Origin: a plasmid | Assembly: GCF_055900595.2 (NCBI RefSeq) | Contig: NZ_JBVWEU010000003.1 | Strand: one strand, 5' to 3' | Length of the DNA stretch: 64,000 nucleotides | Shown here: in pieces, positions 76 through 16,362 of the stretch | Layout: every line of letters begins with the position of its first letter | How positions within the stretch are numbered: position 1 is the first letter of the stretch | Program-made: the position numbers and the translations under genes | Notes under the pieces: generated by a model | Told to the model about the DNA's origin: nothing | What the model saw: the letters and a program-made list of their open reading frames with translations, nothing else | Databases searched by the model: none

Positions 76-82
76 GGTTCTT

Positions 83-610: not shown

Positions 611-628
611 CTGGCCTGACTGTGATAA

Positions 629-901
<273 letters not shown>

Positions 902-964
902 GAGAGGTGCCGGACGGGAACGCGTCCGGCAGACATACAACCATCCCGGTCAAAGGAGAAATAT

Positions 965-2923
965 ATGTCAGTTACAGAGTCTAAGACAAAAACGGAGCGT
1001 AAATCCAGCCGTAAACCTGCAAAAACGCAGGAAACAGTCCTGTCTGCCCTGCTGGCGCAGACGGAGGAAGTGAGCGTGCCGCTGGCCTCACTGATTAAGT
1101 CACCGCTGAATGTGCGCACGGTGCCGTATTCTGCGGAGTCCGTCAGTGAACTGGCTGATTCCATTAAGGGGGTCGGCCTGCTGCAGAATCTGGTTGTTCA
1201 TGCCCTGCCAGGTGACCGCCACGGTGTCGCCGCAGGTGGTCGCCGACTGGCTGCACTCAATATGCTGGCAGAGCGTGGCATCATTCCGGCGGACTGGCCT
1301 GTCCGCGTGAAGGTTATTCCGCAGGAACTGGCGACGGCGGCATCAATGACTGAAAACGGTCATCGTCGGGATATGCACCCTGCTGAACAGATTGCCGGAT
1401 TCCGCGCAATGGCGCAGGAAGGCAAAACACCTGCACAAATCGGTGATTTGCTGGGCTATTCACCCCGCCATGTCCAGCGAATGCTGAAACTGGCTGACCT
1501 TGCGCCTGTCATCCTCGATGCGCTGGCAGAAGACCTCATCACCACCGAGCACTGTCAGGCGCTGGCGCTGGAGAACGACACCGCTCGTCAGGTGCAGGTG
1601 TTTGAAGCCGCCTGTCAGTCAGGATGGGGCGGTAAACCGGAAGTGCAGACCATTCGTCGTCTGGTGACCGAAAGTGAAGTGGCGGTGGCGGGGAACAGTA
1701 AATTCCGCTTCGTGGGGGCTGATGCCTTCTCGCCAGATGAACTGCGCACCGATTTGTTCAGCGATGACGGGGACGGTTATGTCGACCGCGTGGCGCTCGA
1801 TGCCGCCCTGCTGGAAAAACTCCAGGCTGTCGCTGAACACCTTCGGGAAGCCGAAGGCTGGGAATGGTGCGCCGGACGTATGGAGCCTGTCGGTTTCTGC
1901 CGTGAGGATGCCGGAACATACCGCAGTCTGCCGGAGCCGGAAGCTGTGCTGACGGAGGCGGAAGAAGAACGCCTGAACGAACTGATGGCACGTTACGACG
2001 CGCTGGAAAATCAGTGTGAGGAATCCGACCTGCTGGAAGCAGAAATGAAGCTGATGCGCTGCATGGCGAAGGTCAGGGCGTGGACGCCGGAGATGCGTGC
2101 CGGAAGTGGCGTGGTGGTGTCCTGGCGTTATGGAAACGTATGTGTCCAGCGTGGTGTGCAGTTGCGCAGTGAGGATGACGTGGCTGACGACGCTGGCCGC
2201 ACGGAACAGGTGCAGGAGAAAGCCTCCGTGGAGGGAATCAGTCTGCCGCTGCTGACGAAAATGTCTTCCGAACGCACGCTGGCAGTCCAGGCGGCACTGA
2301 TGCAGCAGCCGGACAAATCCCTGGCACTGCTGGCATGGACGCTCTGCCTGAATGTGTTTGGCAGCGGAGCGTACAGTAAACCAGCACAAATCAGCCTGGA
2401 ATGTAAACATTATTCGCTGACCAGCGATGCGCCATCGGGGAAGGAAGGTGCCGCGTTCATGGCGATGATGGCAGAAAAAGCCCGTCTTGCGGCCCTGTTA
2501 CCGGGGGGATGGTCACGGGACATGACGACGTTCCTTTCACTCAGTCAGGAGGTGCTGTTATCCCTGCTCAGTTTCTGCACCGCGTGCAGCATCCACGGCG
2601 TTCAGACCCGCGAGTGTGGTCACACGCCACGCAGCCCGCTGGACACGCTGGAGAGCGCCATCGGTTTTCACATGCGCGACTGGTGGCAGCCGACAAAAGC
2701 AAACTTCTTCGGACACCTGAAAAAGCCGCAGATTATCGCAGCCCTGAATGAGGCAGGACTGTCCGGTGCCGCACGGGACGCGGAGAAGATGAAGAAAGGC
2801 GATGCGGCTGAACATGCAGAGTTCCATATGAAAGACAACCGCTGGGTGCCTGGCTGGATGTGTGCACCACGTCCACAGACGGATACCACTGAACGCACTG
2901 ATAACCTGGCTGATGCCGCCTGA
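965..2923 (+). CDS. ParB-like nuclease domain protein of the leading region
   Basis: 652 aa; N-terminal ParB/Sulfiredoxin-like segment (LQNLVVHALPGD...GGRRLAAL) plus HTH-like segment (PAQIGDLLGYSPRHVQRMLKLA); conserved position upstream of psiB. Confidence 0.8.
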   Translation: MSVTESKTKTERKSSRKPAKTQETVLSALLAQTEEVSVPLASLIKSPLNVRTVPYSAESVSELADSIKGVGLLQNLVVHALPGDRHGVAAGGRRLAALNMLAERGIIPADWPVRVKVIPQELATAASMTENGHRRDMHPAEQIAGFRAMAQEGKTPAQIGDLLGYSPRHVQRMLKLADLAPVILDALAEDLITTEHCQALALENDTARQVQVFEAACQSGWGGKPEVQTIRRLVTESEVAVAGNSKFRFVGADAFSPDELRTDLFSDDGDGYVDRVALDAALLEKLQAVAEHLREAEGWEWCAGRMEPVGFCREDAGTYRSLPEPEAVLTEAEEERLNELMARYDALENQCEESDLLEAEMKLMRCMAKVRAWTPEMRAGSGVVVSWRYGNVCVQRGVQLRSEDDVADDAGRTEQVQEKASVEGISLPLLTKMSSERTLAVQAALMQQPDKSLALLAWTLCLNVFGSGAYSKPAQISLECKHYSLTSDAPSGKEGAAFMAMMAEKARLAALLPGGWSRDMTTFLSLSQEVLLSLLSFCTACSIHGVQTRECGHTPRSPLDTLESAIGFHMRDWWQPTKANFFGHLKKPQIIAALNEAGLSGAARDAEKMKKGDAAEHAEFHMKDNRWVPGWMCAPRPQTDTTERTDNLADAA

Positions 2924-2974
2924 TGAACAACCACACCGCCCCGCCGGAGACGGGGCGGCAGCAAGGGAGATACC

Positions 2975-3412
2975 GTGATGAAAACTGAACTGACCCTGAA
3001 TGTATTACAGACCATGAGTGCACAGGAATATGAAGATATCCGTGCTGCGGGAAGCGATATGCGCCGTAATCTCACTCACGAGGTGATGCGTGAAGTGGAC
3101 GCACCGGCTAACTGGATGATGAATGGCGAGTATGGCAGTGAGTTCGGGGGCTTTTTCCCCGTCCAGGTTCGTTTCACGCCAGCCCACGAACGTTTCCACC
3201 TGGTATTATGTTCGCCGGGAGAAGTCTCTCAGCTCTGGATGCTGGTTCTGGTGAATGGTGGTGGACAGCCTTTCGCCGTCGTTCAGGTGCAACATATCTT
3301 CACGCCTGTCGCGATCAGTCACACGCTGGCGCTCGCCGCGACACTTGATGCGCAGGGATACAGTGTTAACGACATCATTCATATTTTGATGGCAGAAGGA
3401 GGTCAGGCATGA
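2975..3412 (+). CDS. psiB: Plasmid SOS inhibition protein B
   Basis: 145 aa; near-identical over its length to PsiB as recalled ([13 protein letters not shown]...[13 protein letters not shown]). Confidence 0.95.
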
Positions 3413-4128
3413 GCGCACGTTCACGGGCACTGATCCCCCTCAGCGCAGAACAACAGGCCGCCATGCAGGCTGTGGCTGTCACCGAACAACGTCGTCGTCA
3501 GGGACGCACACTTTCAGCATGGCCTTATGCCAGCGCTTTCTTTCGCTGCCTGAATGGCAGTCGCCGGATTTCGCTGACCGATCTCCGCTTTTTTGCTCCT
3601 GCGCTGACGAAGGAGGAATTTCATGGCAACCGTCTCCTGTGGCTGGCTGCCGTGGATAAACTGATTGAAAGTTTTGGTGAAGTCTGTGTTCTTCCCCTGC
3701 CATCCGATGCGGGGCACCGTCTGTTCCCGTCCGTTCCTTTTCGTGAAGGTGAGCGTCGTCGTCAGAAAACCACGCTGACAGAGCAGAAATACAGCCGCCA
3801 GCGGGAACGTGAGGCAGAACGACGGGAACTGGAATACCAGACATGTTTTGCTCAGGCGCAGATTGACCTTGCGTTTCATACTCCCTCCACGGTCGGAAGC
3901 TGGTTGTCCCGCTGGTCTGGTGTTGTTGAGGAGCATGATCTGGAAACGATTTTCTGGGGGTGGTGCGGGCGTTTTCCGTCACTGTCATCATTTGACCGTT
4001 TTTTCTGGCAGGAGGAACCACTCTGGCGGCTGATTTTTGAAGCCGGTGAGGCCGGTCGTGGTGCACCGGTACAGGTACGTGCACTTGAGCAGTGGATGAT
4101 CCCGAACAAGCTGGAGAACGTAATATGA
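3409..4128 (+). CDS. psiA: Plasmid SOS inhibition protein A
   Basis: 239 aa; start overlaps the psiB stop (ATGA); matches PsiA N-terminus (MSARS.ALIPLS.EQQAA...[19 protein letters not shown]). Confidence 0.95.
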
Positions 4129-4721
4129 TGAAATCAGACGAAAAATACCAGGTTCCCGCGTGGATGCGACCTCTGTTGCCGTTGCTCTGCAACACCGGGG
4201 AGAACGATCCGGAAGAACTGCTGAATGATACAGAAACCACTGCCAGTGCGAATGTTGTCCGTTATGTACTGATAGTTGCAGTGCGGTCGCAGGTTGATCT
4301 GCTGCAGCTTCTGTACAGGAAAGGGCTGTTGCGCACAGAGATACCAGGTGGCTTTTCACCGGAAGAAGCGCAGGAACTCCTGGATAATCTGGTGCGCAGC
4401 CATATCAGCAGGGCGCTGTCGGGTGAGCGAATGGCAGCCCGTGACAGGAATGCCGATCTGGCCTGGATTCGACAGCAACTGGTCGATGCCGCCTGGTTTG
4501 TCCGTGCCACACTGGAAGCGCATGGGATGAGCGTCGGAAATGAGAGTCCCCCTGCTCAGCCGGAGACAATGCCGGACATACAGACACGGGAACTGGTGAT
4601 GTTGATCAAGCGACTGGCATCATCGCTGAAAGCGGTGAAACCGGACAGTTGTGTGGTGCGTGAAGCGCAGGACTGGCTGCGCGACAGAAAACTTGTGAGC
4701 ATCACGGATGTTCTTCGGTGA
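4125..4721 (+). CDS. Hypothetical leading-region protein
   Basis: ATG overlapping the psiA stop (TAATATGATG); about 199 aa, acidic, no recognisable motif. Confidence 0.5.
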   Translation: MMKSDEKYQVPAWMRPLLPLLCNTGENDPEELLNDTETTASANVVRYVLIVAVRSQVDLLQLLYRKGLLRTEIPGGFSPEEAQELLDNLVRSHISRALSGERMAARDRNADLAWIRQQLVDAAWFVRATLEAHGMSVGNESPPAQPETMPDIQTRELVMLIKRLASSLKAVKPDSCVVREAQDWLRDRKLVSITDVLR

Positions 4722-5185
4722 ACCAGTGGAGGTATGCTTGAGGGGCAGGGACATGCCGGTCATGATCGTTTCGTTCCAGGGGTGGTCTGGAGATCATGCG
4801 GCGTGTCCTCTGCACTCGCCGGAATAAGGACGTCGCCGCCGGCTCCGCTTTTACCCGGCCATGCGGGGCATGGCCTTGTGGGTTTTCAGTTATGTGGCCG
4901 CCGTGTCGTGTGCGGGCTGTGCCGTGCCTCCATCGTAGCCGGGCTTCTGCGGGCGGGATGCAAGGTAAGATGAACCGCTGCGGTCACCCGGTCCCTCCTT
5001 CCCGTCTGCCGTGATTTTCCGGTCGTTCACCCGCTCAGATTTCGCGGTCTCACCCTCCAACTCCCGTCAGCCGTGCGCGTCGGGCTGCGGCTTTCCTTGC
5101 GCCCTTGCATCCCTGCAGGCCCGGCAAAGATGGAGGCACGGCACCGCCCGGTGTCGCAGAACATGTGACTATGGAGGATTCGGGA

Positions 5186-5686
5186 ATGTCTGTTGTTGCA
5201 CCTGCTGTATACGTTGGAACCTGGCACAAATATAACTGCGGAAGCATCGCCGGCCGCTGGTTTGACCTGACCACGTTTGATGATGAACGCGATTTTTTCG
5301 CCGCCTGCCGTGCCCTTCACCAGGATGAAACCGATCCGGAACTGATGTTTCAGGATTATGAGGGTTTCCCGGGGAATATGGCCTCTGAATGTCATATCAA
5401 CTGGGCCTGGGTTGAAGGCTTCCGCCGGGCACGGGATGAAGGCTGCGAAGAGGCTTATCGTCTCTGGGTGGATGATACCGGTGAGACGGATTTTGACAGC
5501 TTCCGCGATGCCTGGTGGGGCGAGGCTGACAGTGAGGAGGCTTTTGCGGTTGAGTTCGTCAGTGATACCGGCCTGCTGGCTGACGTGCCGGAGACGGTGG
5601 CGCTCTATTTTGACTATGAGGCGTATGCGCGGGATTTATTCCTGGACTCCTTCACCTTTATTGACGGTCATGTGTTCCGTCGGTGA
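5186..5686 (+). CDS. ardA: Antirestriction protein ArdA (type I R-M inhibitor, DNA mimic)
   Basis: 166 aa from the in-frame ATG at 5186, preceded by GGAGG; highly acidic; matches ColIb-P9 ArdA as recalled (MSVVAPAVYVGTWHKYNCGSIAGRWFDL...IDGHVFRR). Confidence 0.9.
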   Translation: MSVVAPAVYVGTWHKYNCGSIAGRWFDLTTFDDERDFFAACRALHQDETDPELMFQDYEGFPGNMASECHINWAWVEGFRRARDEGCEEAYRLWVDDTGETDFDSFRDAWWGEADSEEAFAVEFVSDTGLLADVPETVALYFDYEAYARDLFLDSFTFIDGHVFRR

Positions 5687-6024
5687 TTTACTCCCCCGCT
5701 CCGGCGGGGGTATGGCCTGCCGGGCCGCCGGAAAACCCTGGCAGGCTTACGCCTGCCTGAAATGCAGGAGGGCCGCGCCTGCGGCGCTGCCCTTCCTGCC
5801 CGTCATGGTGTGAGGCATTTTTCTGTTATGTCGTTTCTGTTGTTCTGATTTCCGGAGGCGGGGACACCCTTCGGCTCCCGGCTGCCTGGCGGCATCCGGT
5901 CGTCAGGCCCGACTCCGACAGGCAGCTGCTGGCGCACCCGCCAGTCTCCGCCGAACCCGCTGGCGCGGTTTCGGGCTGCCGCTACGGTCCGATGTCTGAA
6001 AAACCAGGCCTGCAGCGACCGTTC

Positions 6025-6400
6025 CGGTCGCGCCGCCCCTGTCGCGCCGGAAACGGCGCTCCCTGCACACCTGACGGTGTGTAAGGCCACTGCGCCTGAT
6101 GGCGCAGTTGTCTGCCCTTCCGCCGCCACCCCTGCGGCCTGTTTCCCGCTGTGGACTTTCCGGGGGCTGAAGCGGCCACAACACGTTTCAGCCGTCCAGG
6201 GGAGAGATGTACCAGCCACAAAACTTTTTGCCGCAGGCGTCAAAAACTTTTGCGTCTGCCCCCGGACAACTGCCCCGTGCCGTGGCAGTCGCTGCCCCAT
6301 CGGAAAGGTCCACTGCGGGGAGAAACCCCGAAGAAGTGGACGGCAGAAGGGGCTTTCGCCCCTCCGGGGAATAACCGGTCGGCCCGGCGACCTGATTCAG
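6025..6400 (+). promoter_or_regulatory. ssi/Frpo-like single-strand promoter element (repeat copy B)
   Basis: About 370-bp GC-rich non-coding element, near-identical in blocks to 8895-9255; several short hairpins (ACACC-TGAC-GGTGT, CTGCGCC-TGAT-GGCGCAG, GGGGC-TTTC-GCCCC); directly upstream of a + strand gene block. Confidence 0.6.
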
Positions 6401-6417
6401 CAGAAGGAGACGTTTTC

Positions 6418-6852
6418 ATGACAGTCAGCAGCACGATTTCCGTTTTTTGCCGAGACGGGGTGTTCCGTACCGTTTACTGCCACCTGCACGGTGAGCCGAC
6501 CTGGAACGGTCGCATCCTGCATACCCACTATGCCACCGGTCAGCTGGCCGAAGCCCTGGTTGAACACGGAGATATCCGTTGCCTCGGTCCCCGTTGCGAC
6601 AAACCCGCCGGGCATACGCTTCAGAACCCGGTGGACGGTGTGACGGCTTATTACGGACGTGACAGTGGTTTCCGGATGGACAGTGAAGCGCGTGAGTACC
6701 GCTCTTTCAGGGAGGCTATTGCCACTGAAAGCACAGAAGAGGTGCGCTTCCATTATGTGTTCATCGACGGCTACTGGAAGGTGATGTACCGCACGCCGGA
6801 AGGCTGGAAGATGAAAGCGCTCGCGCTGGCACTGCGTCGCTGTCCGGAATGA
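6418..6852 (+). CDS. Hypothetical leading-region protein (first gene after ssi copy B)
   Basis: 144 aa from ATG 6418 with GGAGA RBS; Cys/His-rich N-terminus (CRDG...CHLHGE...C..PRC); no family recognised. Confidence 0.55.
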   Translation: MTVSSTISVFCRDGVFRTVYCHLHGEPTWNGRILHTHYATGQLAEALVEHGDIRCLGPRCDKPAGHTLQNPVDGVTAYYGRDSGFRMDSEAREYRSFREAIATESTEEVRFHYVFIDGYWKVMYRTPEGWKMKALALALRRCPE

Positions 6853-6944
6853 AAAAAAGCAGGGCGATAAACCCTGCCTTTCTCCGCCGGCGCTTCCCCG
6901 TACGGAAGTCCGGCATCTCATTCACTAACTATGGAGATTATGCT

Positions 6945-7211
6945 ATGAGGCCATCAATTATCTTCGCAACCGCCGAGTATGTAAAGCGTCTGCGTGAAGA
7001 GTGCCGGCGGGAGAACAAACCCCTGCACCGCCATACCCGCTTCAGACGCCAGGAACTGGCACCGGATGAGATTAACCCGGACGTCCTGGCGATGGGCGGT
7101 CATATCGCCAGACGCTGCAGTGAGCGGAAGCGGGTGCGTATCCCCGCCATGAAAGTCAGCGAATGGGGCCACCTGCTCCGCGCGCTTGAAATTGAGCGGG
7201 TCTGCCACTGA
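6945..7211 (+). CDS. Hypothetical small basic protein
   Basis: 88 aa from in-frame ATG 6945 with GGAG 8 nt upstream; Arg-rich. Confidence 0.4.
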   Translation: MRPSIIFATAEYVKRLREECRRENKPLHRHTRFRRQELAPDEINPDVLAMGGHIARRCSERKRVRIPAMKVSEWGHLLRALEIERVCH

Positions 7212-7275
7212 TTAACCCTTGCCGTCTGCCTGTGCAGGCGGCAGGATACGTTCAGACATCTCACCAGGAGGAACC

Positions 7276-8193
7276 GTGAGTAAGAAGAAAACCACCACGA
7301 CGCCCACGCCGCATGATGCCGCGTTCCGGTCGTTCCTGGCGAACCCCGACGTCGCCAGAGATTTTCTGGAACTGCATCTTCCGGCGGAGTACCGGCAGTT
7401 GTGCGACCTGTCCACGCTGAAGCTGGAACCCGCCACCTTTGTTGAGCCGGACCTGCATCAGTACGCCAGCGATATCCTCTGGAGTGTGAAAACCACCGGG
7501 GGTGAAGACGGCTATATTTATACGCTCATCGAGCACCAGAGCACCGAAAATCTGTACATGCCTTTCCGCATGTTACGTTACAGTGTGGCGGCGATGCAGA
7601 GACATCTGGAGCAGCACAAAACATTGCCACTGGTGATTCCGGTGCTGTTCTATCATGGTGAGCGCAGCCCGTACCCGTACAGCATGAACTGGCTGGACTG
7701 TTTTGAGGATCCGGCACTTGCGGCTAAAATATACACAAAGCCGTTTCCGCTGGTTGATATCACTGTCGTTGATGACAATGAAATCATGAACCATCGCCGG
7801 ATGGCCGCACTGACGCTGCTGATGAAGCATATCCGTCAGCGGGATATGCTGATGTGTCTGGACAACCTGGTCAGGGCACTGCAGGACATCCAGGATGAAG
7901 AGCAGATTACAGTTCTTTTCAACTATCTGCTTAATGGCAGCGAACATGTAACGGTTAAATTTTTGCAGACGCTGGCGCAGCGACTGCCGCAGCACGAGGA
8001 CAGCATTATGACACTGGCAGAACGTCTTAAGCAGGAAGGAATACAGCAGGGAATACAGCAGGGAATACAGAAAGGCCGCATGGAGGAGAAGCTGGATATT
8101 GCGCGTCAGCTTCAGAAAACGGGAATGTCATTTGCACAAATCTGTCAGATCACCGGACTTTCTGAAGCCGAACTGAAAAAAATCGCCCACTGA
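7276..8193 (+). CDS. Rpn-family recombination-promoting nuclease (YhgA-like, PD-(D/E)XK)
   Basis: GTG start at 7276 after AGGAGG; N-terminus MSKKKTTTTPTPHDAAFRSFL and core ...YIYTLIEHQS... typical of Rpn proteins; C-terminal GIQQGIQQGIQKG repeat and helical tail. Confidence 0.85.
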   Translation: MSKKKTTTTPTPHDAAFRSFLANPDVARDFLELHLPAEYRQLCDLSTLKLEPATFVEPDLHQYASDILWSVKTTGGEDGYIYTLIEHQSTENLYMPFRMLRYSVAAMQRHLEQHKTLPLVIPVLFYHGERSPYPYSMNWLDCFEDPALAAKIYTKPFPLVDITVVDDNEIMNHRRMAALTLLMKHIRQRDMLMCLDNLVRALQDIQDEEQITVLFNYLLNGSEHVTVKFLQTLAQRLPQHEDSIMTLAERLKQEGIQQGIQQGIQKGRMEEKLDIARQLQKTGMSFAQICQITGLSEAELKKIAH

Positions 8194-8205
8194 GTAAACA
8201 TCACA

Positions 8206-8231
8206 GCCCGGCAAAATGCCGGGCTTTTTTG
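8206..8231 (+). terminator. Rho-independent terminator after the rpn gene
   Basis: GCCCGGC-AAAAT-GCCGGGC stem-loop followed by TTTTTT. Confidence 0.7.
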
Positions 8232-8254
8232 TCAGCAGGAGCAGAGCAAACAGC

Positions 8255-8413
8255 ATGACGATTGCAGAACGTCTTATTCAAAAAGGCGCTCTTGAAGTGG
8301 CGCGGGAAATAGCCTGCCGGCTTCGGGATATGGGCTGGACGCCGGAACGGATTCAGGAGGCAACCGGACTTTCCGGTGAAGAACTGAAAAAACTGTTTCC
8401 TGATGAGCTGTAG
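8255..8413 (+). CDS. Free-standing Rpn C-terminal-domain-like small protein (RpnS-like)
   Basis: 52 aa (MTIAERLIQKGALEVAREIACRLRDMGWTPERIQEATGLSGEELKKLF) resembling the C-terminal tail of the upstream Rpn protein (AERLKQEG...IARQLQKTGMSFAQICQITGLSEAELKKI). Confidence 0.4.
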   Translation: MTIAERLIQKGALEVAREIACRLRDMGWTPERIQEATGLSGEELKKLFPDEL

Positions 8414-8443
8414 CCTGGCATTCTGCCAGGCTGTGAATCACGC

Positions 8444-8695
8444 TCACACATCCTCTGCCGTTTCCCCCAGTTCATTTTCCAGTCGCCTGATGATATCTGC
8501 CTTACGCATCCCCTGCATGTGAGGCAGCAGGTCACGGACTGAAAGAGCCTGGGTGGTCCTCCAGACGGTGACGTCCACCTGTTCCGCATTTTCCCAGGCG
8601 TGCCATGTTCTCTGCGTCACGCCAAATTCTCTGGCCGCTTTTTCGCGTGACCAGAGCATGCTTTTTCGCCAGATTCGCAGTTCCCAGCCGGTCAT
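8444..8695 (-). CDS. Small HTH DNA-binding protein (Cro/XRE-like), opposite strand to the leading-region genes
   Basis: 83 aa; LWSREKAAREFGVTQRTWHAWE helix-turn-helix-like segment; ATG at 8695-8693. Confidence 0.55.
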   Translation of the reverse strand: MTGWELRIWRKSMLWSREKAAREFGVTQRTWHAWENAEQVDVTVWRTTQALSVRDLLPHMQGMRKADIIRRLENELGETAEDV

Positions 8696-8710
8696 AAAAC
8701 ACCTTTGAAA

Positions 8711-8796
8711 AAGTGAAAAAACTTCACTTTATTTTATCATCATAATCATCAAATCAGCGCGATAAATAAGTGTGAAAAAGTGAAGAAATTTCACTT
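8711..8796. promoter_or_regulatory. Two identical palindromic operator-like sites AAGTGAA-N5-TTCACTT (8711-8729 and 8778-8796)
   Basis: Perfect 7-bp inverted half-sites with 5-bp spacers, twice, in an AT-rich stretch just upstream of the - strand HTH gene start. Confidence 0.55.
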
Positions 8797-8894
8797 TTTT
8801 TTGATTGTGGGTGTCGTGCTGTTTTCTCTGTTTTCACCTGTGCGGGAGTGGTGCGCCAGTGACCACAGCATGCCGTTGTTGTGCCGTCGGTTTT

Positions 8895-9255
8895 CTCCGG
8901 TCGCGCCGGATGCGGCGCTCCCTGCACACCTGACGGTGTGTAAGGCCACTGCGCCTGATGGCGCAGCTGTCTCTGCCTGTCTGCCGCCGCACTGCGGCCC
9001 GTTCTCCGCAGACGGACTTTCCGGGGGTACATACACGACCACATCCCGTTTCAGTCGTCCAGGGGAGAGATGTACCAGCCACAAAACTTTTTGCCGCAGG
9101 CGTCAAAAACTTTTGCGTCTGCCCCCGGACAACTGCCCCGTGACGTGGTGAGCGTCCCCCGTCGGAAAGGTCCACTGCGGGGAAATCCCCGAAGACCCGG
9201 ACGGCAGAAGGAGCTTCGCTCCTCCGGGAAATGACCTGGCTGACCCGGCAGTCGT
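8895..9255 (+). promoter_or_regulatory. ssi/Frpo-like single-strand promoter element (repeat copy C, oriT-proximal)
   Basis: Shares long near-identical blocks with 6025-6400 (for example GCGCTCCCTGCACACCTGACGGTGTGTAAGGCCACTGCGCCTGATGGCGCAG and CAGCCACAAAACTTTTTGCCGCAGGCGTCAAAAACTTTTGCGTCTGCCCCCGGACAACTGCCCCGTG). Confidence 0.6.
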
Positions 9256-9275
9256 GACGATGAGGAGACAATGTG

Positions 9276-10124
9276 ATGAATCAGACTTTACCCACTGCTG
9301 ACCTGAATACTGCCGGCACGACAGATGTTATTCCGTCTGTGGCTATCGACCGCATCATCGCGCAGCGTAACGAAGGTATTACACTGTTCATGCAGGCGAT
9401 GGAATGCCTGGCGACAGCGCGCAGGATTCTGCTCGATGCGTCAGGTGATATTTTTCTTTACGGGTTTGAAGACTGCGTGACTGATTCCGTTCGTCGCATG
9501 GATAAACCGGAAGAAGCGAAAAGGAATATCACCCGTCTTGCCGACCGGAAAATCTGGGACCGCCTGATGACAGATACGGGCATGTACACCTTCATGAGTT
9601 CATGCCAGCGTGATGAGTGGAACAGCCAGCTGATGAGCGACACCTGTCCTGAAATCACCCTGGACAATGTACTGGCAACATTCCGCCATCTGAATGCCAG
9701 CAAAATGCAGACATTTGAACAGGGACTGATTGATGTCTACCGGAAATTGTCATGGGATTACAGAACCAATAATCCCTGCCGTCTGGGCAAGAAAATCATT
9801 ATTGAAAACCTGCTGTACCGCTGGAGTAACGGGCGTGTGACGCTGGACTGCAGCGGACGGGAGGCACTGGATGACCTGGTACGTCCGTTTTATCTGCTGG
9901 AGGGGCGCAACGTTCCTGACTTCCGGAGCAGCATCGGGGCGCAGTATTGTGAATTTCTCGGGAACGGCGACAATATCGGTGAGTTGTTTGAAGGGGAATA
10001 TTTTACGGTGCGTGGCTACCAGAAAGGAACCGTACACATTGTCTTTAAGCGTTCTGACCTTGTTGAAAAACTGAATGATATTATTGCACGGCATTATCCT
10101 GGTGCATTGCCGCCACGAGTCTGA
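9276..10124 (+). CDS. Hypothetical protein, first gene downstream of the oriT-proximal ssi element
   Basis: 282 aa from ATG 9276 with GAGGAG RBS; no motif recognised with certainty; followed by a terminator. Confidence 0.6.
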   Translation: MNQTLPTADLNTAGTTDVIPSVAIDRIIAQRNEGITLFMQAMECLATARRILLDASGDIFLYGFEDCVTDSVRRMDKPEEAKRNITRLADRKIWDRLMTDTGMYTFMSSCQRDEWNSQLMSDTCPEITLDNVLATFRHLNASKMQTFEQGLIDVYRKLSWDYRTNNPCRLGKKIIIENLLYRWSNGRVTLDCSGREALDDLVRPFYLLEGRNVPDFRSSIGAQYCEFLGNGDNIGELFEGEYFTVRGYQKGTVHIVFKRSDLVEKLNDIIARHYPGALPPRV

Positions 10125-10132
10125 TTAAACAG

Positions 10133-10170
10133 AAAAGCCCTGGTATTTATGCCGGGGCTTTTTTTTCTGT
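10133..10170 (+). terminator. Probable rho-independent terminator
   Basis: Imperfect GC stem (AGCCCTGG...CCGGGGCT) followed by an 8-T run. Confidence 0.5.
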
Positions 10171-10209
10171 AATCATCATAATCTCAGAACACGATGTGAC
10201 ATTGTCACA

Positions 10210-10545
10210 TCAATTGTTGTTCATATCGATGCCATCTTTCCTGCCTGAATCTGTCTTTTTAGGTGCTGTTTTAGAGGAAGAACGGCGGGATGGTTTTTTC
10301 GATTCTGCTTCCCGAATAATGTCACGAAGTGCCTTCTCTCCTACTTCATACCCTGCATTTTTGAGCGTGTCACGAACATCTGCAAGTGTATAACCCTTTG
10401 TCCTTACCAGGACAATGATGTCATCACGAATGGCATCAAGAAAATCACGCAATGTTTTCCGTTGAGCGGTGAGGTCCGGCAATTCCGATAAGGCAGATTT
10501 TGCCAGCTGGATGTCATCATCTGAGTAAAATTTTTTAGAAGCCAT
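10210..10545 (-). CDS. Hypothetical small protein adjacent to oriT, divergent from nikA
   Basis: About 111 aa from ATG 10545 with GGAGAG RBS; charged and helical, Lys/Ser-rich basic C-terminal tail. Confidence 0.5.
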   Translation of the reverse strand: MASKKFYSDDDIQLAKSALSELPDLTAQRKTLRDFLDAIRDDIIVLVRTKGYTLADVRDTLKNAGYEVGEKALRDIIREAESKKPSRRSSSKTAPKKTDSGRKDGIDMNNN

Positions 10546-10599
10546 TGGCACTGTCTCTCCGTTTCATGTTGAAGCCTGATTTTATCATCAAAAACTGAC

Positions 10600-10777
10600 T
10601 CCTGGCAGGGCTGCGCCCTGCCTCTGCCGTCTGCATAAGACTATGATGCACAAAAATAACAGGCTATAATTGCATGAAAAACGGGACAGGATGTGGGAAT
10701 GTCGGACCGCGCACGCGCACTCAGACATTCCCCACCTGGTCAGGGCTTTGCCCCGACACCCCGGTAAGGAGCAGACC
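10600..10777 (-). other. oriT: Origin of transfer, R64-like; predicted nick in the - strand between + coordinates 10687 and 10686
   Basis: The - strand reads ...GGGGTGTCGGGGCAAAGCCCTGACCAGGTGGGGAATGTCTGAGTGCGCGTGCGCGGTCCGACATTCCCACATCCTGTCCCG...; inverted repeat GGGAATGTC/GACATTCCC (10695-10703 and 10724-10732) beside an ATCCTG motif; immediately upstream of nikA. Confidence 0.7.
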
Positions 10778-11110
10778 ATGAGTGAGAAGAAAACCCGAAC
10801 GGGCAGTGAGAACAGGAAGAGAATTGTAAAATTCACGGCGAGATTCACGGAGGATGAGGCTGAAATCGTAAGAGAAAAAGCGGAGTCAAGTGGACAGACG
10901 GTTTCAACATTTATACGAAGCTCTTCACTGGATAAGGTGGTTAACTGCCGTACTGACGACCGTATGATTGATGAGATTATGCGTCTTGGCCGCCTTCAGA
11001 AGCATCTGTTTGTGGAGGGAAAACGCACTGGTGATAAGGAGTATGCAGAGGTTCTTGTTGCCATTACTGAATATGTCAATGCTCTGCGAAGAGACTTAAT
11101 GGGACGCTGA
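10778..11110 (+). CDS. nikA: Relaxosome accessory protein NikA (ribbon-helix-helix)
   Basis: 110 aa from ATG 10778 with AAGGAG RBS; small basic RHH-like protein directly upstream of the relaxase. Confidence 0.85.
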   Translation: MSEKKTRTGSENRKRIVKFTARFTEDEAEIVREKAESSGQTVSTFIRSSSLDKVVNCRTDDRMIDEIMRLGRLQKHLFVEGKRTGDKEYAEVLVAITEYVNALRRDLMGR

Positions 11111-11121
11111 GATAACTGCTG

Positions 11122-13842
11122 ATGAATGCCATTATTCCGCACAAAAGACGTGACGGCAGGTCTTCCTTTGAAGACCTGATTGCGTACACGTCTGTGCGGG
11201 ATGATGTGCAGGAAAATGAGCTCACAGAAGACAGCGAAATCAAGAGTGATGTCCCTCACCGCAACCGTTTCAGACGGCTTGTTGATTATGCAACACGCCT
11301 GCGTAACGAAAAATTTGTCTCCCTGATTGATGTGATGAAAGACGGCAGTCAGTGGGTAAATTTCTATGGCGTAACCTGTTTCCATAACTGCAATTCACTG
11401 GAAACAGCTGCTGAAGAGATGCAGTACAAGGCGGACAAAGCTGTTTTTTCCCGTAATGATACAGACCCCGTTTTCCACTACATTCTTTCCTGGCCTGCGC
11501 ATGAAAGCCCGCGTCCTGAGCAGCTTTTTGACTGTGTGCGTCACACACTGAAATCTCTTGAACTCTCAAAACATCAGTACGTGGCTGCCGTTCATACGGA
11601 CACGGATAATCTGCATGTGCATGTTGCCGTGAATCGTGTACATCCTGAAACTGGTTATATTAACTGGCTTTCCTGGAGCCAGGAAAAACTCAGTCGTGCA
11701 TGCCGTGAACTTGAACTTAAGCACGGATTTGCGCCGGATAATGGCTGCTTTGTGCATGCACCCGGCAACCGTATTGTGCGCAAAACAGCGCTGGTACGTG
11801 AGCGCCGTAATGCCTGGCGACGCGGGAAAAAGCAGACGTTCAGGGAATATATTGCGCAGATGTCGATTGCCGGGCTGCGTGAAGAGCCCGCACAGGACTG
11901 GTTATCTTTGCATAAACGGCTGGCCAGTGATGGTCTGTATATCACGATGCAGGAAGGGGAACTGGTGGTGAAGGATGGCTGGGACAGAGCGCGGGAAGGT
12001 GTTGCACTCAGTTCGTTCGGACCGTCATGGACAGCTGAAAAACTGGGGCGGAAACTGGGGGAATATCAGCCTGTACCGACAGATATTTTCAGTCAGGTGG
12101 GGACACCCGGTCGTTATGATCCGGAAGCCATAAACGTGGATATCCGGCCGGAAAAAGTGGCAGAAACGGAGAGTCTGAAACAGTACGCCTGTCGTCACTT
12201 TGCTGAACGCTTACCGGAAATGGCGCGAAATGGTGAACTGAAAAGTTGCCTGGCTGTACACCGTACTCTGGCAGAGGCGGGATTATGGATGGGGATTCAG
12301 CACGGGCATCTGGTACTGCATGATGGATTTGATAAACAACAGACACCAGTACGTGCAGACAGTGTGTGGCCGTTAATGACGCTGGATTATATGCAGGATC
12401 TGGATGGTGGATGGCACTCTGTACCGAAGGATATTTTTACTCAGGTTATACCCGAAGAACGATTCCGGGGACACAGTATTGGCACTCAGGCTGTCAGCGA
12501 TTACGAATGGTATCGCATGAGGATGGGCACTGGTCCACAGGGTGCCATAAAGCGTGAACTGTTTTCCGATAAGGAAAGTCTGTGGGGATACGCTCTTATT
12601 CAGTGCAGGAGCCAGATTGAAGAGATGATAGCTGGCGGGGATTTCAGCTGGCAGGCATGTCATGAGATGTTTGCGCGTAAAGGGCTTATGCTGCAGAAAC
12701 AGCATCATGGTCTCGTGATTGTGGATGCGTTTAATCATGAACTGACACCGGTGAAGGCCAGCAGTATCCACCCGGATTTGACGTTATCCCGGGCCGAGCC
12801 TCAGGCCGGGCCATTTGAAATTGCGGCTGCAGATATTTTCGAACGGGTGAAGCCTGAATGTCGCTACAATCCGGAACTTGCTGCCAGTGATGAAGTGGAG
12901 CCCGGCTTCCGGCGCGATCCTGAGCTGCGTCGTGAGCGCCGTGAAGCCCGTGCAGCTGCGCGGGAAGATTTGCGTGCGCGTTATCTTGCATGGAAGGAAC
13001 ACTGGCGTAAACCCGATTTACGTTACGGCGAACGGTTGCGGGAAATTCATGCTGCCTGCCGTCGTCGCAAGGCTCATATCCGCGTGCAGTTCCGGGATCC
13101 ACAATTGCGTAAACTGCATTACCATATTGCAGAAGTGCAACGTATGCAGGCGCTGATCAGACTGAAGGAAAATGTCAGGGAAGAGCGACTGGCGCTGATG
13201 GCGGAGGGTAAGTGGTATCCGTTGTCCTACCGGCAGTGGGTGGAACAACAGGCGGCGCAAGGCGACAGAGCTGCAGTGTCACAGCTCCGAGGCTGGGATT
13301 ATCGCGATCGTCGCTCGCGTAATAAGGATAAAAGACGCACAACTAATGCTGATCGTTGTGTCGTTCTCTGCGAACCCGGAGGAACGCCACTTTTTAATAA
13401 TGTTGCAAAACTTGAAGCTCGTCTTCAGAAAAATGGAAGTGTTCATTTCAGGGATACGCGGACAGGAAAAAATGTCTGTACGGATTACGGAGATCGGGTT
13501 GTGTTCTACCATCACACGGACCGAAATGAACTGGCAGAGAAGCTTGATTTAATTGCGCCAGTTCTGTTCAGCCGCAACGGAAAGCTTGGTTTTGAGCCGG
13601 AAGGTTCATACCAGCAGTTTAATGATGTGTTTGCAGAAATGGTGGCCTGGCACAATGCAGCGGGAATAACCGGAAACGGACACTTCACCATTACTCGTCC
13701 GGACGTGGATTTGCACCGTCAACGCAGTGAGCAGTATTACCGGGAATATATCAGACAGCAGACCCGTTTATCGGAGAGCCATGATGATAATTATACGTTA
13801 CGGCAGGAGAAAACATGGGAGCCACCATCACCTGGAATGTAA
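11122..13842 (+). CDS. nikB: MOBP-family relaxase NikB
   Basis: 906 aa; His-rich relaxase motif HTDTDNLHVHVAVNRVHPETG; size and position match R64 NikB. Confidence 0.9.
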   Translation: MNAIIPHKRRDGRSSFEDLIAYTSVRDDVQENELTEDSEIKSDVPHRNRFRRLVDYATRLRNEKFVSLIDVMKDGSQWVNFYGVTCFHNCNSLETAAEEMQYKADKAVFSRNDTDPVFHYILSWPAHESPRPEQLFDCVRHTLKSLELSKHQYVAAVHTDTDNLHVHVAVNRVHPETGYINWLSWSQEKLSRACRELELKHGFAPDNGCFVHAPGNRIVRKTALVRERRNAWRRGKKQTFREYIAQMSIAGLREEPAQDWLSLHKRLASDGLYITMQEGELVVKDGWDRAREGVALSSFGPSWTAEKLGRKLGEYQPVPTDIFSQVGTPGRYDPEAINVDIRPEKVAETESLKQYACRHFAERLPEMARNGELKSCLAVHRTLAEAGLWMGIQHGHLVLHDGFDKQQTPVRADSVWPLMTLDYMQDLDGGWHSVPKDIFTQVIPEERFRGHSIGTQAVSDYEWYRMRMGTGPQGAIKRELFSDKESLWGYALIQCRSQIEEMIAGGDFSWQACHEMFARKGLMLQKQHHGLVIVDAFNHELTPVKASSIHPDLTLSRAEPQAGPFEIAAADIFERVKPECRYNPELAASDEVEPGFRRDPELRRERREARAAAREDLRARYLAWKEHWRKPDLRYGERLREIHAACRRRKAHIRVQFRDPQLRKLHYHIAEVQRMQALIRLKENVREERLALMAEGKWYPLSYRQWVEQQAAQGDRAAVSQLRGWDYRDRRSRNKDKRRTTNADRCVVLCEPGGTPLFNNVAKLEARLQKNGSVHFRDTRTGKNVCTDYGDRVVFYHHTDRNELAEKLDLIAPVLFSRNGKLGFEPEGSYQQFNDVFAEMVAWHNAAGITGNGHFTITRPDVDLHRQRSEQYYREYIRQQTRLSESHDDNYTLRQEKTWEPPSPGM

Positions 13843-14061
13843 GCCCGGATAAGTGATGGTGCAAAGATTCAGCCCAAAAACGGCAGGAACCTTCGTCAAT
13901 AAGGGCGGGAGTAGTCACTGAATTGAGTTTATACCCGGTTAACTCTGAATTAAGGGCCGTGTCTGCGGCCCTTATCCAGTGCGCCGTAAACCCCGGACTT
14001 AGTGAACAGGGTTTTACAGTCTGATTGACAGATATGGTCACCAGAAAATATTTGTATTCCT

Positions 14062-16362
14062 TCAGTATTTTTCGTCAGTTGTTGGTTGTGCTCCACATGA
14101 TTTCTGGGGATGATCATTATTTATTGTCTGCGATTTATTATTTTCAGCGACCGGTAACAGTATCTCCAGGGGGAGCAGGGTATTCAGAATCGCCTTCACT
14201 GAAGGTATATCTTCAGGACCGGAGTGTTCCTCTTCCGGACGATTCAGTGTGATATAACATACCCGGCGTTCTTCCCTGGTTGTGTTATTGATAGTGTGCA
14301 CAGCCTTTTTCCACAGTTCGTTTGCCCGGGATTCGATATCTGTATCATATTGCGGAAGCAGATCCAGTGATGTCTGCGCTGTTGCCAACCGGCGCTGGAA
14401 TGTATCAATGATACGGTAAGGCTCTGTACGGTTTTTACGACGTTTACGGGATGGTTTTGCTGTCAGTACACCAATAATGCTGCTGACATGCTCCGGTGTG
14501 GGAAAACGGCGCTGCACTGTCCTGGGGACAAGACGGCGGAGACGTTCCAGTCGGGGGGCTTCAACAGAGATATAACGGTTGATGACCACTGGATCACTGT
14601 CGCAACTTTTTTCGCTGTCCGGAATATACACAGAGGCTGACGGCACCACATCCCCCTGGAAAACGGTAAAGAATTCACCGGCATTCAGTTTGATTAAATC
14701 CTGCACGTTGATTTTGCTTTCCATCTGGATTGTGATCTGGTTACCGTCCACCCAGGACTCTCCCATCACACCATCGTGGCGCTGCAGGCTGCCCATTCTG
14801 GCGCGGGCCTCTTCACCGGCGGCATTTTTCACCGTCCTTGCTGTTTTGTCGTCACTGACAATGCGTCCGGCGAATTTGGTGCCGGCGTTCTGCATCAGCG
14901 TGGCGGTGTTGGTGGCAGAAGTCTGCCCTTCGATTCGCTCCTGATCCTGCGCCGTCATTATCAGGGAGAACTCCAGTGAACGTACCTGGGTGGCCTCCAC
15001 TGCAATGCGGTCCGTGTAGTAGGCACCGACTTCGTCAAGGATACAGATATAGGGGAAGCGGCCTTTGTATTTTTTGACTTCCAGGGTCTGTGCATCTGTG
15101 CCTTCCAGGCGGTAGCCCAGGTCACGGGCGAGGATCATGCTCTGCTGGGTGATGAACATACGACCGAGTGCCGACGTGGTATGGGCTGATGTGTCCAGTG
15201 CGGGGATCATCACAATCAGAATTCGGTCGCTGTGGATACTGTCGCGAATATCGATGTCGCCGGCATCTGCCGCAAAGACGTCCCCGAAGGTTTCGGCAAA
15301 GGTTGTGAACGTTTCCGAGAACTGACCGGAGAGATAAGCATGCTGTTTACGGGGCTCCTCAGTCCAGGCTGACGGCGTTCTCACCAGTGACATATCGAAT
15401 CCCGGGACATCCTGCAGGTAGTTTCGCAGTGGTGCGATAGCTTCTTCCGGCCACTGGTCATCAAGGCCACGGCAATAGAGTTTTGCCATCCCTTCCAGCG
15501 TCATATGTTCCCGTAACATATGCAGGGACATGGTTTTACCTTCCCGGACGCACCAGAATTTTGTGCCAAAGACCAGGGCCTTGTTCATGGCTATCGCCCG
15601 TGACTGCCATTCACCGCCCTGAACGTTCTGGGGCAGCATGGACTGCATGGTTTCGGCGGTGAAGGCTTCGGTGCTGAATGCGAACGGGTTCCAGGTGTTT
15701 GACTGTGGGCGGGATTTATCGCCACTCTGAATGACTTCACTGCGGGATTTTCCGCCGTTCATGAAGTTGATGACCTCGATATCATCCTCCCGGCCAAAAC
15801 GTCGGGAGAGATACCAGATTGTCCTCGTGGTATCGTTCTGTGCCTTTCCGTCAACAAAGGTAAAGCCTCTTCCCCAGCAGAGCGGGTTGAGCAGCCAGGC
15901 AAAGGTGGTTTCTGTTTTACCGCCACCGGTGGTGGAAAAAAATATGATATGCCGGGTGAGGTCATCCATGCTCAGCCAGAGCTCACGACCGATATCGTTG
16001 ATACGGCGGTAACCGACATAAAAAATCCCCCGTGCGGGGGATGTTTCATCTGCTTCATACTGAAACAGGGTAGGCCAGAAGCTGAAGAGGCTTCGCCTGA
16101 CCTTTCTGTCCTGGGAGGGGTCATCAAGGCTGAGCGTCATGGGCATACGCAGGGGGCATCGCCAGCGTTGCAGCGTGAATATCACGGAGGTGACCAGGGT
16201 GAACAGCAGACAGACAGGAAGGGCCAGTGGCCATATCAGGGCCGTAATGATACTGCCAGCCAGACACAGACCAATGATGTTCAGGTTGTGCAGTGCATTC
16301 CACAGCGGGTTTCCCCAGGCCGTGCGGTGTATGAGGTCAGGATTAACGTGATGCTGGCTCAT
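14062..16362 (-). CDS. trbC: Type IV coupling protein TrbC (DotL/IcmO-like ATPase)
   Basis: 766 aa; N-terminal TM helices; Walker A FFSTTGGGKTE; position next to nikB. Confidence 0.85.
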   Translation of the reverse strand: MSQHHVNPDLIHRTAWGNPLWNALHNLNIIGLCLAGSIITALIWPLALPVCLLFTLVTSVIFTLQRWRCPLRMPMTLSLDDPSQDRKVRRSLFSFWPTLFQYEADETSPARGIFYVGYRRINDIGRELWLSMDDLTRHIIFFSTTGGGKTETTFAWLLNPLCWGRGFTFVDGKAQNDTTRTIWYLSRRFGREDDIEVINFMNGGKSRSEVIQSGDKSRPQSNTWNPFAFSTEAFTAETMQSMLPQNVQGGEWQSRAIAMNKALVFGTKFWCVREGKTMSLHMLREHMTLEGMAKLYCRGLDDQWPEEAIAPLRNYLQDVPGFDMSLVRTPSAWTEEPRKQHAYLSGQFSETFTTFAETFGDVFAADAGDIDIRDSIHSDRILIVMIPALDTSAHTTSALGRMFITQQSMILARDLGYRLEGTDAQTLEVKKYKGRFPYICILDEVGAYYTDRIAVEATQVRSLEFSLIMTAQDQERIEGQTSATNTATLMQNAGTKFAGRIVSDDKTARTVKNAAGEEARARMGSLQRHDGVMGESWVDGNQITIQMESKINVQDLIKLNAGEFFTVFQGDVVPSASVYIPDSEKSCDSDPVVINRYISVEAPRLERLRRLVPRTVQRRFPTPEHVSSIIGVLTAKPSRKRRKNRTEPYRIIDTFQRRLATAQTSLDLLPQYDTDIESRANELWKKAVHTINNTTREERRVCYITLNRPEEEHSGPEDIPSVKAILNTLLPLEILLPVAENNKSQTINNDHPQKSCGAQPTTDEKY

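What the first reader, a model, noticed from the sequence alone, without database searches (positions are those of the whole stretch)
8895..10124. oriT-proximal ssi-like element driving an uncharacterised 282-aa gene, the first gene to become expressible in a recipient
The predicted nick (10686/10687, - strand) implies the - strand enters the recipient 5' first, oriT-proximal sequence first. All leading-region genes lie on the + strand, so the incoming single strand is their template. The element at 8895-9255 is a hairpin-rich repeat of the kind that acts as a single-strand promoter, and the 9276-10124 ORF is its immediate downstream gene and the closest to oriT. That position is where early-expressed anti-defence functions are typically found, yet the protein has no motif I can assign, which makes it a strong candidate for an undescribed anti-defence or establishment factor.
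Basis: partly seen in the sequence, partly recalled or inferred. Interest (0 to 1): 0.72.

Follow-up and report, generated by a model that had tools for sequence, protein, structure and literature searches.

The report
Known ssi1 promoter driving ygfB (DUF4942)
This is the already catalogued single-strand promoter ssi1 of IncI-type conjugative plasmids with its one downstream gene, ygfB, a widespread DUF4942 protein that is switched on as the plasmid enters a new cell but whose function is still unknown.

Summary
Window 8900-9226 (- strand) is 99.1% identical to the catalogued ColIb-P9 ssi1/'Frpo1' element. It is 98.5% identical to the copy directly upstream of Hp22 in pESBL, where ssi1-3 were shown by RNA-seq and 5' RACE to be the strongest single-strand promoters in fresh transconjugants. 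The transferred strand folds far better than shuffles (z = -7), and 16 of 62 pairs show compensatory changes across seven copies.

The ORF at 9276-10124 is ygfB (Hp22). It matches Pfam DUF4942 (E = 2.6e-50) and evolves under purifying selection (dN/dS about 0.16-0.18). A strong terminator follows it.

Samuel & Burstein (2024) already list this family as leading-region enriched, on the T-strand, at median position 1 from oriT.

- yggA (- strand), not ygfB, is the gene nearest oriT.
- Not all leading genes are on the + strand.
- The protein does have an assignable family.

It is not a methyltransferase. It has no SAM-binding fold or motifs and no relative among solved structures. The module is, however, often fused to small SAM-dependent methyltransferase domains elsewhere. 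Tn-seq in pESBL classed the gene as non-essential for laboratory transfer. An anti-defence role remains plausible but untested.

The parts
8900..9226 (-). ssi1 (ColIb-P9 'Frpo1'), a class 1 single-strand DNA promoter, read on the transferred (-) strand. The main imperfect hairpin spans about 9002-9184 with its loop near 9097-9100. Three short hairpins lie at about 8902-8968.
   Evidence: 99.1% identical over 327 nt to AJ238399.1:1459-1787 as listed in PMC11541004 supplementary file 4. 98.5% identical to the pESBL copy upstream of Hp22. The core 9021-9131 is 74-78% identical to both F Frpo copies. Fold z = -7. Hairpin ladder. Covariation.
9263..9267 (+). Shine-Dalgarno AGGAG, 8 nt before the ATG of ygfB
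   Evidence: Read directly from the sequence.
9276..10124 (+). ygfB (Hp22 of pESBL), 282 aa, stand-alone DUF4942 protein
   Evidence: Pfam DUF4942 at E = 2.6e-50 over residues 90-275. Gene names. dN/dS is 0.16 against pESBL and 0.18 against pS12-1. AlphaFold2 model with mean pLDDT 81.6.
10136..10168 (+). Intrinsic terminator between the convergent genes ygfB and yggA (GC-rich hairpin followed by a T run)
   Evidence: RNA fold of 10118-10180 gives -25.9 kcal/mol, z = -6.0. Sequence.
10210..10551 (-). yggA, the gene actually nearest oriT. It lies on the strand that cannot be transcribed from the incoming single strand.
   Evidence: ORF. Named yggA in pS12-1 and pESBL. [quoted passage not shown] No Pfam or NCBIfam family found.
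10686..10732 (-). oriT nick region: CATCCTG|T (nick between 10687 and 10686 on the - strand) and an 18-nt inverted repeat at 10695-10732
   Evidence: nikA and nikB follow at 10779 and 11122. The exact nick position is inferred from the MOBP consensus, which I recalled rather than tested.
6038..6388 (-). Second copy of the same promoter class (ssi2 homologue). It lies upstream of the Hp16 homologue, whose coding stretch at about 6417-6851 I placed by coordinate offset from pESBL and did not check.
   Evidence: 86% identical to the 8897 copy. 88.8% identical to ColIb-P9 'Frpo2'. 90.6% identical to the pESBL copy upstream of Hp16.

Best explanation
The window is an IncI-complex conjugative plasmid. 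The finding is its oriT-proximal early unit, made of ssi1, ygfB and a terminator.

Shown or taken from close homologues: NikB nicks the - strand at oriT, so that strand enters the recipient 5' end first. About 1.4-1.8 kb behind the nick, the entering strand folds into the long imperfect ssi1 hairpin. This is a Frpo-type class 1 single-strand promoter. Host RNA polymerase uses it to transcribe towards oriT with the incoming strand as template. The product is a monocistronic ygfB mRNA that ends at the terminator at 10136-10168. Once the complementary strand is made, the hairpin no longer exists and the promoter shuts off. The transcript may also prime complementary-strand synthesis.

Inferred: YgfB is a stand-alone copy of DUF4942. 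In many other proteins this module is fused, in either order, to a small SAM-dependent methyltransferase domain. YgfB lacks that catalytic domain. It cannot be a methyltransferase by itself, and it is not an acidic DNA mimic. Its many strongly conserved polar and aromatic residues suggest a conserved ligand- or nucleic-acid-binding or catalytic site.

My best guess, at a probability of about 0.35, is that it acts in the first minutes in the recipient on DNA modification or restriction. It might shield or mark the incoming DNA, or it might engage a modification or restriction enzyme. The confidence given below covers identity and early expression, not this function.
For: Identity of the plasmid and gene order:
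- 99% identity to IncK2/Z and IncI-gamma plasmids.

Element:
- 99.1% identical to the catalogued ColIb-P9 ssi1/'Frpo1'.
- 98.5% identical to the pESBL copy next to Hp22.
- Homologous to both F Frpo copies.
- Fold z = -7.
- 16 of 62 pairs show compensatory change, beyond all shuffles and slid controls.

Function of the class:
- Six ssDNA promoters were mapped in pESBL. ssi1-3 form class 1, gave the highest transcription and have 5' RACE start sites (PMC12672017).
- Frpo deletions abolish early expression in F (PMC9849209).
- IncI leading regions have three operons transcribed by ssi3-1, and ssi3 drives the ssb operon, so the oriT-proximal copy is ssi1 (PMC10104558).

Gene:
- DUF4942, under purifying selection, followed by a terminator.
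- The family has 3132 clusters at 50% identity. Of the 150 best, nearly all complete members are stand-alone proteins of about 255-300 aa.
- Fusions to MTS-type methyltransferase domains with motif I and an NPPF motif are common (phrog_6263).
- 34 positions are at least 85% conserved over 129 diverse members.
- Family contexts are plasmid leading-type gene arrays and phage-like early-gene arrays.
- The family is enriched in leading regions, on the T-strand, at median position 1.
Against: - I could not locate convincing -35 and -10 hexamers in the hairpin by consensus scanning. The mapped start sites are in a supplementary figure I could not read.
- The text I could read does not name Hp22 as induced. 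I inferred this because Hp22 is the only gene between ssi1 and the terminator.
- Tn-seq classed Hp22 as non-essential for pESBL transfer.
- No homologue of the fused methyltransferase domain lies in the 64-kb window or in the fetched leading regions, so there is no obvious partner enzyme in cis.
- No structural or sequence relative of known function was found.
- DUF4942 genes on two MOBH plasmids have no structured upstream region (z about 0). Early single-strand expression is therefore not a family-wide trait.
Confidence: 0.85

Rival explanations
1. YgfB works mainly in the established plasmid or in the donor, not as an early recipient factor. It might act as a regulator or accessory factor near oriT. 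In this reading it is expressed from a conventional double-strand promoter controlled by the divergently encoded HTH protein, and ssi1 serves chiefly to prime complementary-strand synthesis.
For: Two near-palindromic sites (8708-8730 and 8777-8799) and a promoter-like GTGAAA-16-TATCAT at 8713-8740 lie between the HTH gene (8444-8695, - strand) and ssi1. Frpo-type transcripts can prime DNA synthesis. Hp22 is dispensable for laboratory transfer. The neighbouring yggA family (orf35 of pCTX-M3) affects mobilisation.
Against: In pESBL, class 1 promoters gave the highest transcription in transconjugants, and leading genes are strongly induced there relative to donors. ygfB is oriented so that the transferred strand is its template, as is the whole family in Samuel & Burstein's table. 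The candidate double-strand promoter is a weak consensus match, and such matches are not more frequent here than in shuffles (3 found against 1.7 +/- 1.3).
Confidence: 0.15
2. YgfB is a DNA methyltransferase, as many database records call it. It would protect the incoming plasmid by methylating it.
For: Legacy names such as 'Methyltransferase' and 'Methyltransferase domain protein' for family members. Orphan methyltransferases are common in leading regions.
Confidence: 0.03
3. YgfB is a non-catalytic subunit or adaptor that recruits a methyltransferase encoded elsewhere, either host Dam, Dcm or HsdM or another plasmid enzyme such as the M.EcoGIX homologue, to the entering DNA.
For: The DUF4942 module is repeatedly fused to methyltransferase domains in either order. 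This is a Rosetta-stone type of link. M.EcoGIX-type single-strand methyltransferases act early on IncI plasmids (PMC7736820).
Against: No homologue of the fused catalytic domain is present in the window or the fetched leading regions. No methyltransferase gene is adjacent in any stand-alone context examined. No interaction data exist.
Confidence: 0.15

Closest known systems
ColIb-P9 ssi1 ('Frpo1', AJ238399.1:1459-1787) and the pESBL ssi copy upstream of Hp22, both class 1 single-strand DNA promoters
   Same: Essentially the same sequence (99.1% and 98.5% identity). It has the same position between the HTH gene and ygfB, about 1.4-1.8 kb from the nick. It has the same strand and the same downstream gene.
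   Different: Nothing of substance. A few base substitutions. This plasmid types as IncK2/Z or IncI-gamma-like rather than IncI1.
F plasmid Frpo1 with ygeA and ygeB (orf273, DUF932), the oriT-proximal early unit of F
   Same: A homologous promoter core (74-78% identity). It is likewise the last single-strand promoter before oriT, transcribes towards oriT, and is separated from oriT by an oppositely oriented gene (ygfA in F, yggA here).
   Different: The cargo is unrelated. F carries ygeA plus a DUF932 protein and has no DUF4942 gene in its leading region. In F the Frpo1 unit clearly matters for conjugation efficiency. In pESBL, Hp22 was non-essential.
DUF4942-methyltransferase fusion proteins (for example P0250 at 559 aa, P0160 at 467 aa, and phrog_6263 'DNA methyltransferase')
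   Same: They share the whole YgfB-like module, including the N-terminal helix outside the Pfam model and the conserved S, R, D..W, N.P, DL.R, PD.R and G..H positions.
   Different: They carry an additional SAM-dependent methyltransferase domain (motif I and NPPF) that YgfB lacks.
Known leading-region anti-restriction proteins (ArdA, ArdB/KlcA)
   Same: Same neighbourhood, same strand and the same kind of early single-strand promoter control.
   Different: No sequence or profile similarity. YgfB is not a strongly acidic DNA mimic: its pI is 5.6 and the family median is 7.7. No anti-restriction activity has been reported for it.

Membership tests
Frpo/ssi class 1 single-strand DNA promoters | Sequence homology to the experimentally studied Frpo and ssi elements | tested here: met
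   99.1% to ColIb-P9 ssi1/'Frpo1'. 98.5% to the pESBL copy. The core is 74-78% identical to both F Frpo copies.
Frpo/ssi class 1 single-strand DNA promoters | Lies in the leading region, upstream of a gene whose template is the transferred strand | tested here: met
   The nick motif and inverted repeat are on the - strand at 10686-10732, with nikAB beyond them. ygfB is on the + strand downstream of the element.
Frpo/ssi class 1 single-strand DNA promoters | The transferred strand folds into a long, stable, imperfect stem-loop that evolution maintains | tested here: met
   z = -7.0. 93.5% of cells pair, and 16 pairs show compensatory change against 7.5 +/- 1.6 in shuffles.
Frpo/ssi class 1 single-strand DNA promoters | The stem reconstitutes sigma-70 -35 and -10 boxes | tested here: inconclusive
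   There is no match of 9 of 12 or better in the element on either strand. A relaxed scan of seven copies gave no conserved candidate. The published assignments are in figures that are not held as text.
Frpo/ssi class 1 single-strand DNA promoters | Transcription starts on single-stranded DNA in the recipient and stops after conversion to double strand | not testable with these tools
   Reported for ssi1-3 of pESBL by RNA-seq and 5' RACE (PMC12672017) and for Frpo in F (PMC9849209). It has not been measured for this plasmid.
Pfam DUF4942 (PF13708) | Significant match to the family HMM over its full length | tested here: met
   E = 2.6e-50, score 171.2, model positions 5-189 of 190.
SAM-dependent DNA methyltransferases | Rossmann-type SAM-binding domain with motif I and a catalytic (D/N)PP(Y/F) motif | tested here: not met
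   No methyltransferase family matched. No solved methyltransferase matched by sequence, profile or fold. The motifs are present only in the extra domain of fused relatives.
Known anti-restriction or anti-defence proteins (ArdA, ArdB/KlcA and other DNA mimics) | Homology to a known family, or the strongly acidic DNA-mimic character | tested here: not met
   No hits in Pfam, NCBIfam or PADLOC. pI is 5.6 and the family median is 7.7. PADLOC models defence systems rather than anti-defence proteins, and no dedicated anti-defence library was available.
Anti-defence or establishment factor (functional class) | Raises transfer or establishment in recipients that carry a defence system | not testable with these tools
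   The only available data are Tn-seq results in laboratory E. coli, where the gene is non-essential for transfer (PMC4288162).

The most novel reading that the evidence does not exclude
Stand-alone DUF4942 proteins such as YgfB would be a new class of first-wave establishment factor. On this reading they are a conserved substrate-binding or catalytic module that lacks the methyltransferase domain found in fused relatives. It has a fold unlike any solved structure. It would be made within seconds of entry from ssi1 and would protect or mark incoming DNA, or disarm a modification-dependent or restriction system.
Probability: 0.3. Interest if true: 0.6.

Novelty: already known. Interest (0 to 1): 0.27.

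Why it matters
The unit itself adds nothing new. The promoter is catalogued, its early activity has been measured on a 98.5% identical copy, and the gene family is already listed among leading-region families of unknown function.

What remains open is what DUF4942 does. It is one of the large leading-region families, with 2171 members in Samuel & Burstein's set and over 3000 clusters at 50% identity in the library searched here. It sits at the first transcribable position after oriT in IncI-type resistance plasmids. It also occurs in phage-like early-gene arrays, and it has no relative of known structure or function.

- The protein is not a methyltransferase.
- Its module is tied to methyltransferases by frequent domain fusion.
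- It has an unusually conserved set of polar and aromatic residues.

Tried and rejected
- Rfam gave no family at gathering thresholds in 1-16000.
- NCBIfam and PADLOC gave nothing for YgfB or yggA. Pfam gave nothing significant for yggA.
- AFDB50 Foldseek returned only DUF4942 family members.
- I tried to place -35 and -10 hexamers in the hairpin for both possible template arms, by the consensus tool and by a relaxed scan of seven copies. Nothing conserved or convincing emerged.
- I first supposed that ygfB was the homologue of F orf273. This is rejected: orf273/ygeB is DUF932, and F has no DUF4942 in its leading region.
- I checked whether YfjB/HerB, recently characterised, was this gene. It is not. 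It is the ParB-like gene at 965-2923.
- I looked for a separately encoded partner methyltransferase homologous to the fused domain. None lies in the window or the fetched loci.
- I tested whether structured upstream regions are a family-wide trait. One IncL/M locus had z = -4.1, and two MOBH loci were near 0.
- The MMBR review of folded DNA (PMC2937521) was not held.

Full report
**What the window is.** The region 8700-10800 is 99% identical to many IncI-complex plasmids. The best matches type as IncK2/Z or IncI-gamma/K1, with a MOBP relaxase and MPF_I mating-pair formation. The gene order is:
- ssb (83-610)
- a DUF905 gene
- the ParB-like yfjB/yfhA gene (965-2923)
- psiB
- psiA
- ardA
- a block of small genes
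- an HTH gene on the - strand (8444-8695)
- the element and ORF of the finding
- yggA on the - strand (10210-10551)
- oriT
- nikA (10779) and nikB (11122-13842)

The ORF runs from ATG 9276 to the stop at 10124, giving 282 aa, and is preceded by AGGAG at 9263-9267. The upstream stretch is a true repeat. A second copy lies at 6038-6388, and IncI plasmids carry three copies each.
- On the - strand, 8880-9275 folds at -110.6 kcal/mol against -77.6 +/- 4.7 for shuffles (z = -7.0).
- The main feature is a long imperfect hairpin at about 9002-9184 with a conserved 10-nt bulge. Three short hairpins flank it at about 8902-8968.
- I aligned seven copies: two from the window, three from pESBL and two from F. 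In these, 93.5% of cells pair. Sixteen of 62 pairs carry compensatory changes, against 7.5 +/- 1.6 in column shuffles (0 of 500) and at most 6 when partners are slid.
- The structure is therefore maintained by selection, not by chance.

**The strand logic is sound.** CATCCTG|T lies on the - strand at 10693-10686. It sits eight bases from an 18-nt inverted repeat (10695-10732), between yggA and nikA. This is the layout I recall for MOBP origins such as R64 and RP4. The recollection is a lead rather than a test, and the 8-mer alone occurs 19 times in the window. With that nick, the - strand enters 5' end first and serves as the template for + strand genes.

**What the element is.** Samuel & Burstein's supplementary table of known Frpo and ssi sequences lists 'ColIb P-9 plasmid, Frpo1, AJ238399.1:1459-1787'.
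- That 329-nt sequence matches window 9226-8900 at 99.1%.
- The window copy is 98.5% identical to the copy in pESBL that ends at the start codon of Hp22.
- Its core (9021-9131) matches both F Frpo copies, one upstream of ygeA and one upstream of ssb, at 74-78%.
- Benz and Hall describe the IncI leading region as three operons 'transcribed by ssi3-1', with ssi3 driving ssb-yfhA-psiB-psiA (PMC10104558). The oriT-proximal copy is therefore ssi1.
- Wen et al. (PMC12672017) ran RNA-seq on pESBL transconjugants after removing the donors. They found six induced operons, each with a hairpin-forming upstream region, and mapped all six start sites by 5' RACE. They classed ssi1-3 with Frpo as class 1, the class with the highest transcription.
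- In F, deleting either Frpo abolishes early production of the downstream proteins (PMC9849209).
- The text I could read does not name Hp22 as induced. I infer it, because Hp22 is the only gene between ssi1 and the strong terminator at 10136-10168 (z = -6).

I could not place the -35 and -10 boxes myself. That one defining feature stays inconclusive here.

**What the gene is.** In R64-style naming it is ygfB, and in pESBL it is Hp22. It matches Pfam DUF4942 over the whole model (E = 2.6e-50). Against two other IncI copies, dN/dS is 0.16-0.18, so it is a real gene under constraint.
- The family is large. There are 3132 clusters at 50% identity with E of 0.001 or better. Among the 150 best, nearly all complete members are stand-alone proteins of about 255-300 aa.
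- In the plasmid collection it appears on IncI, IncL/M, IncFIB(K)-type, MOBH and other conjugative plasmids.
- Elsewhere it sits in phage-like arrays of small genes.
- Samuel & Burstein's table already lists it as family 24: 2171 members, FDR p = 0 for leading-region enrichment, median position 1 from oriT, T-strand orientation, annotated 'Uncharacterized; DUF4942; Methyltransferase', with the names YdiA and YgfB.

**It is not a methyltransferase.**
- No methyltransferase family matches it.
- No solved structure matches by sequence or profile.
- The AlphaFold2 model is confident (mean pLDDT 81.6). It shows a helical bundle (residues 21-158) followed by a small alpha/beta part.
- AFDB50 returns only family members.

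The 'methyltransferase' label appears to come from association. Many relatives of 440-580 aa join the same module to an MTS-type SAM-dependent domain carrying motif I and NPPF. PHROG profiles place the module at either end of such proteins.

No homologue of that catalytic domain is present in the 64-kb window or the fetched leading regions. YgfB is not an acidic DNA mimic either: its pI is 5.6 and the family median is 7.7.

Over 129 diverse members, 34 positions are at least 85% conserved. They include D90, W94, W160, Y162, N165, D200, R203, D215, R217, H254 and N267. That pattern fits a conserved binding or catalytic site better than a variable sequence-recognition domain.

**How it most likely works.**
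- Shown by sequence: the layout of promoter, gene, terminator and origin, and the selected hairpin.
- Taken from close homologues: transcription from the folded incoming strand within seconds of entry, and shut-off after conversion to double strand. At about 46 kb/min, the 1.8 kb up to ssi1 enters in roughly 2-3 s. The next promoter copy follows a few seconds later, so the head start of being 'first' is small.
- Inferred: the protein's role. I put about 0.35 on an activity connected with DNA modification or restriction in the new host. I put about 0.15 on a role mainly in the established plasmid or donor, and about 0.15 on an adaptor for a methyltransferase encoded elsewhere. I put about 0.03 on YgfB itself being a methyltransferase.
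- Tn-seq classed Hp22 as non-essential for pESBL transfer between laboratory strains (Non-essential 1.00, Required for transfer 0.00; PMC4288162). This neither supports nor excludes a role against specific defences.

**Comparison with what is known.** The unit is the same thing as ColIb-P9 or pESBL ssi1 plus ygfB. It works like F's Frpo1-ygeA-ygeB unit. It has the same promoter class, the same place next to oriT, and an oppositely oriented gene between it and the origin (ygfA in F, yggA here). Its cargo is unrelated, since F has a DUF932 protein and no DUF4942 in its leading region.

- yggA, not ygfB, is nearest oriT.
- Two leading genes are on the - strand.
- The protein does have an assignable family.

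**Verdict.** The finding is already known. The open residue is the unknown function of DUF4942, which the published screens have already flagged.

Noticed in passing
window 8697-8802: Two near-palindromic sites of the form AAAGTGAA-N4/5-TTCACTTT (8708-8730 and 8777-8799) lie between the divergent HTH gene (8444-8695, - strand) and ssi1. A promoter-like GTGAAA-16-TATCAT sits at 8713-8740 on the + strand. This looks like an operator pair for the HTH protein and could give ygfB a second, conventional promoter in the established plasmid.
   Followed up: no
window 4826-5178: A 32-nt inverted repeat (4913-4944 and 5119-5150, 91% complementary, 174 nt apart) lies just upstream of ardA. I placed ardA at about 5186-5686 by coordinate offset from pESBL. 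The whole stretch is 87% identical to the region upstream of the klcA-like antirestriction gene in pESBL. This fits the 'class 2' single-strand promoters that Wen et al. describe upstream of ardA and klcA.
   Followed up: partly
window 6038-6388: A second class 1 ssi copy (ssi2 homologue) lies here. It is 88.8% identical to ColIb-P9 'Frpo2' and sits upstream of a block of small genes that includes an Rpn-family nuclease homologue.
   Followed up: partly
window 965-2923: This 652-aa ParB-like gene is the yfhA/yfjB homologue. A 2026 preprint characterises the F protein as HerB, a CTP-binding clamp that reprograms host transcription after transfer (PMC13370423). Loss-of-function mutations in the IncI gene raised transfer rate in one clinical host strain (PMC10104558).
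   Followed up: no
window 10210-10551 (- strand): yggA, the gene nearest oriT, has no Pfam or NCBIfam family. Some records mislabel it 'molybdopterin-guanine dinucleotide biosynthesis protein MobC'. Knocking out its pCTX-M3 homologue orf35 raised mobilisation more than 200-fold (PMC6112013).
   Followed up: partly
window, whole: The MOBP nick-type octamer YATCCTGY occurs 19 times in the window against 9.3 +/- 2.9 in shuffles, with none of 100 shuffles reaching 19. Only the copy at 10686-10693 has the oriT context.
   Followed up: no
window about 8730-8927 (- strand): RefSeq annotates a 65-aa hypothetical protein here in pEGY2 and pESBL. I placed it in the window by coordinate offset. It overlaps the left end of ssi1 and its hairpins, so it is probably not a real gene.
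   Followed up: no
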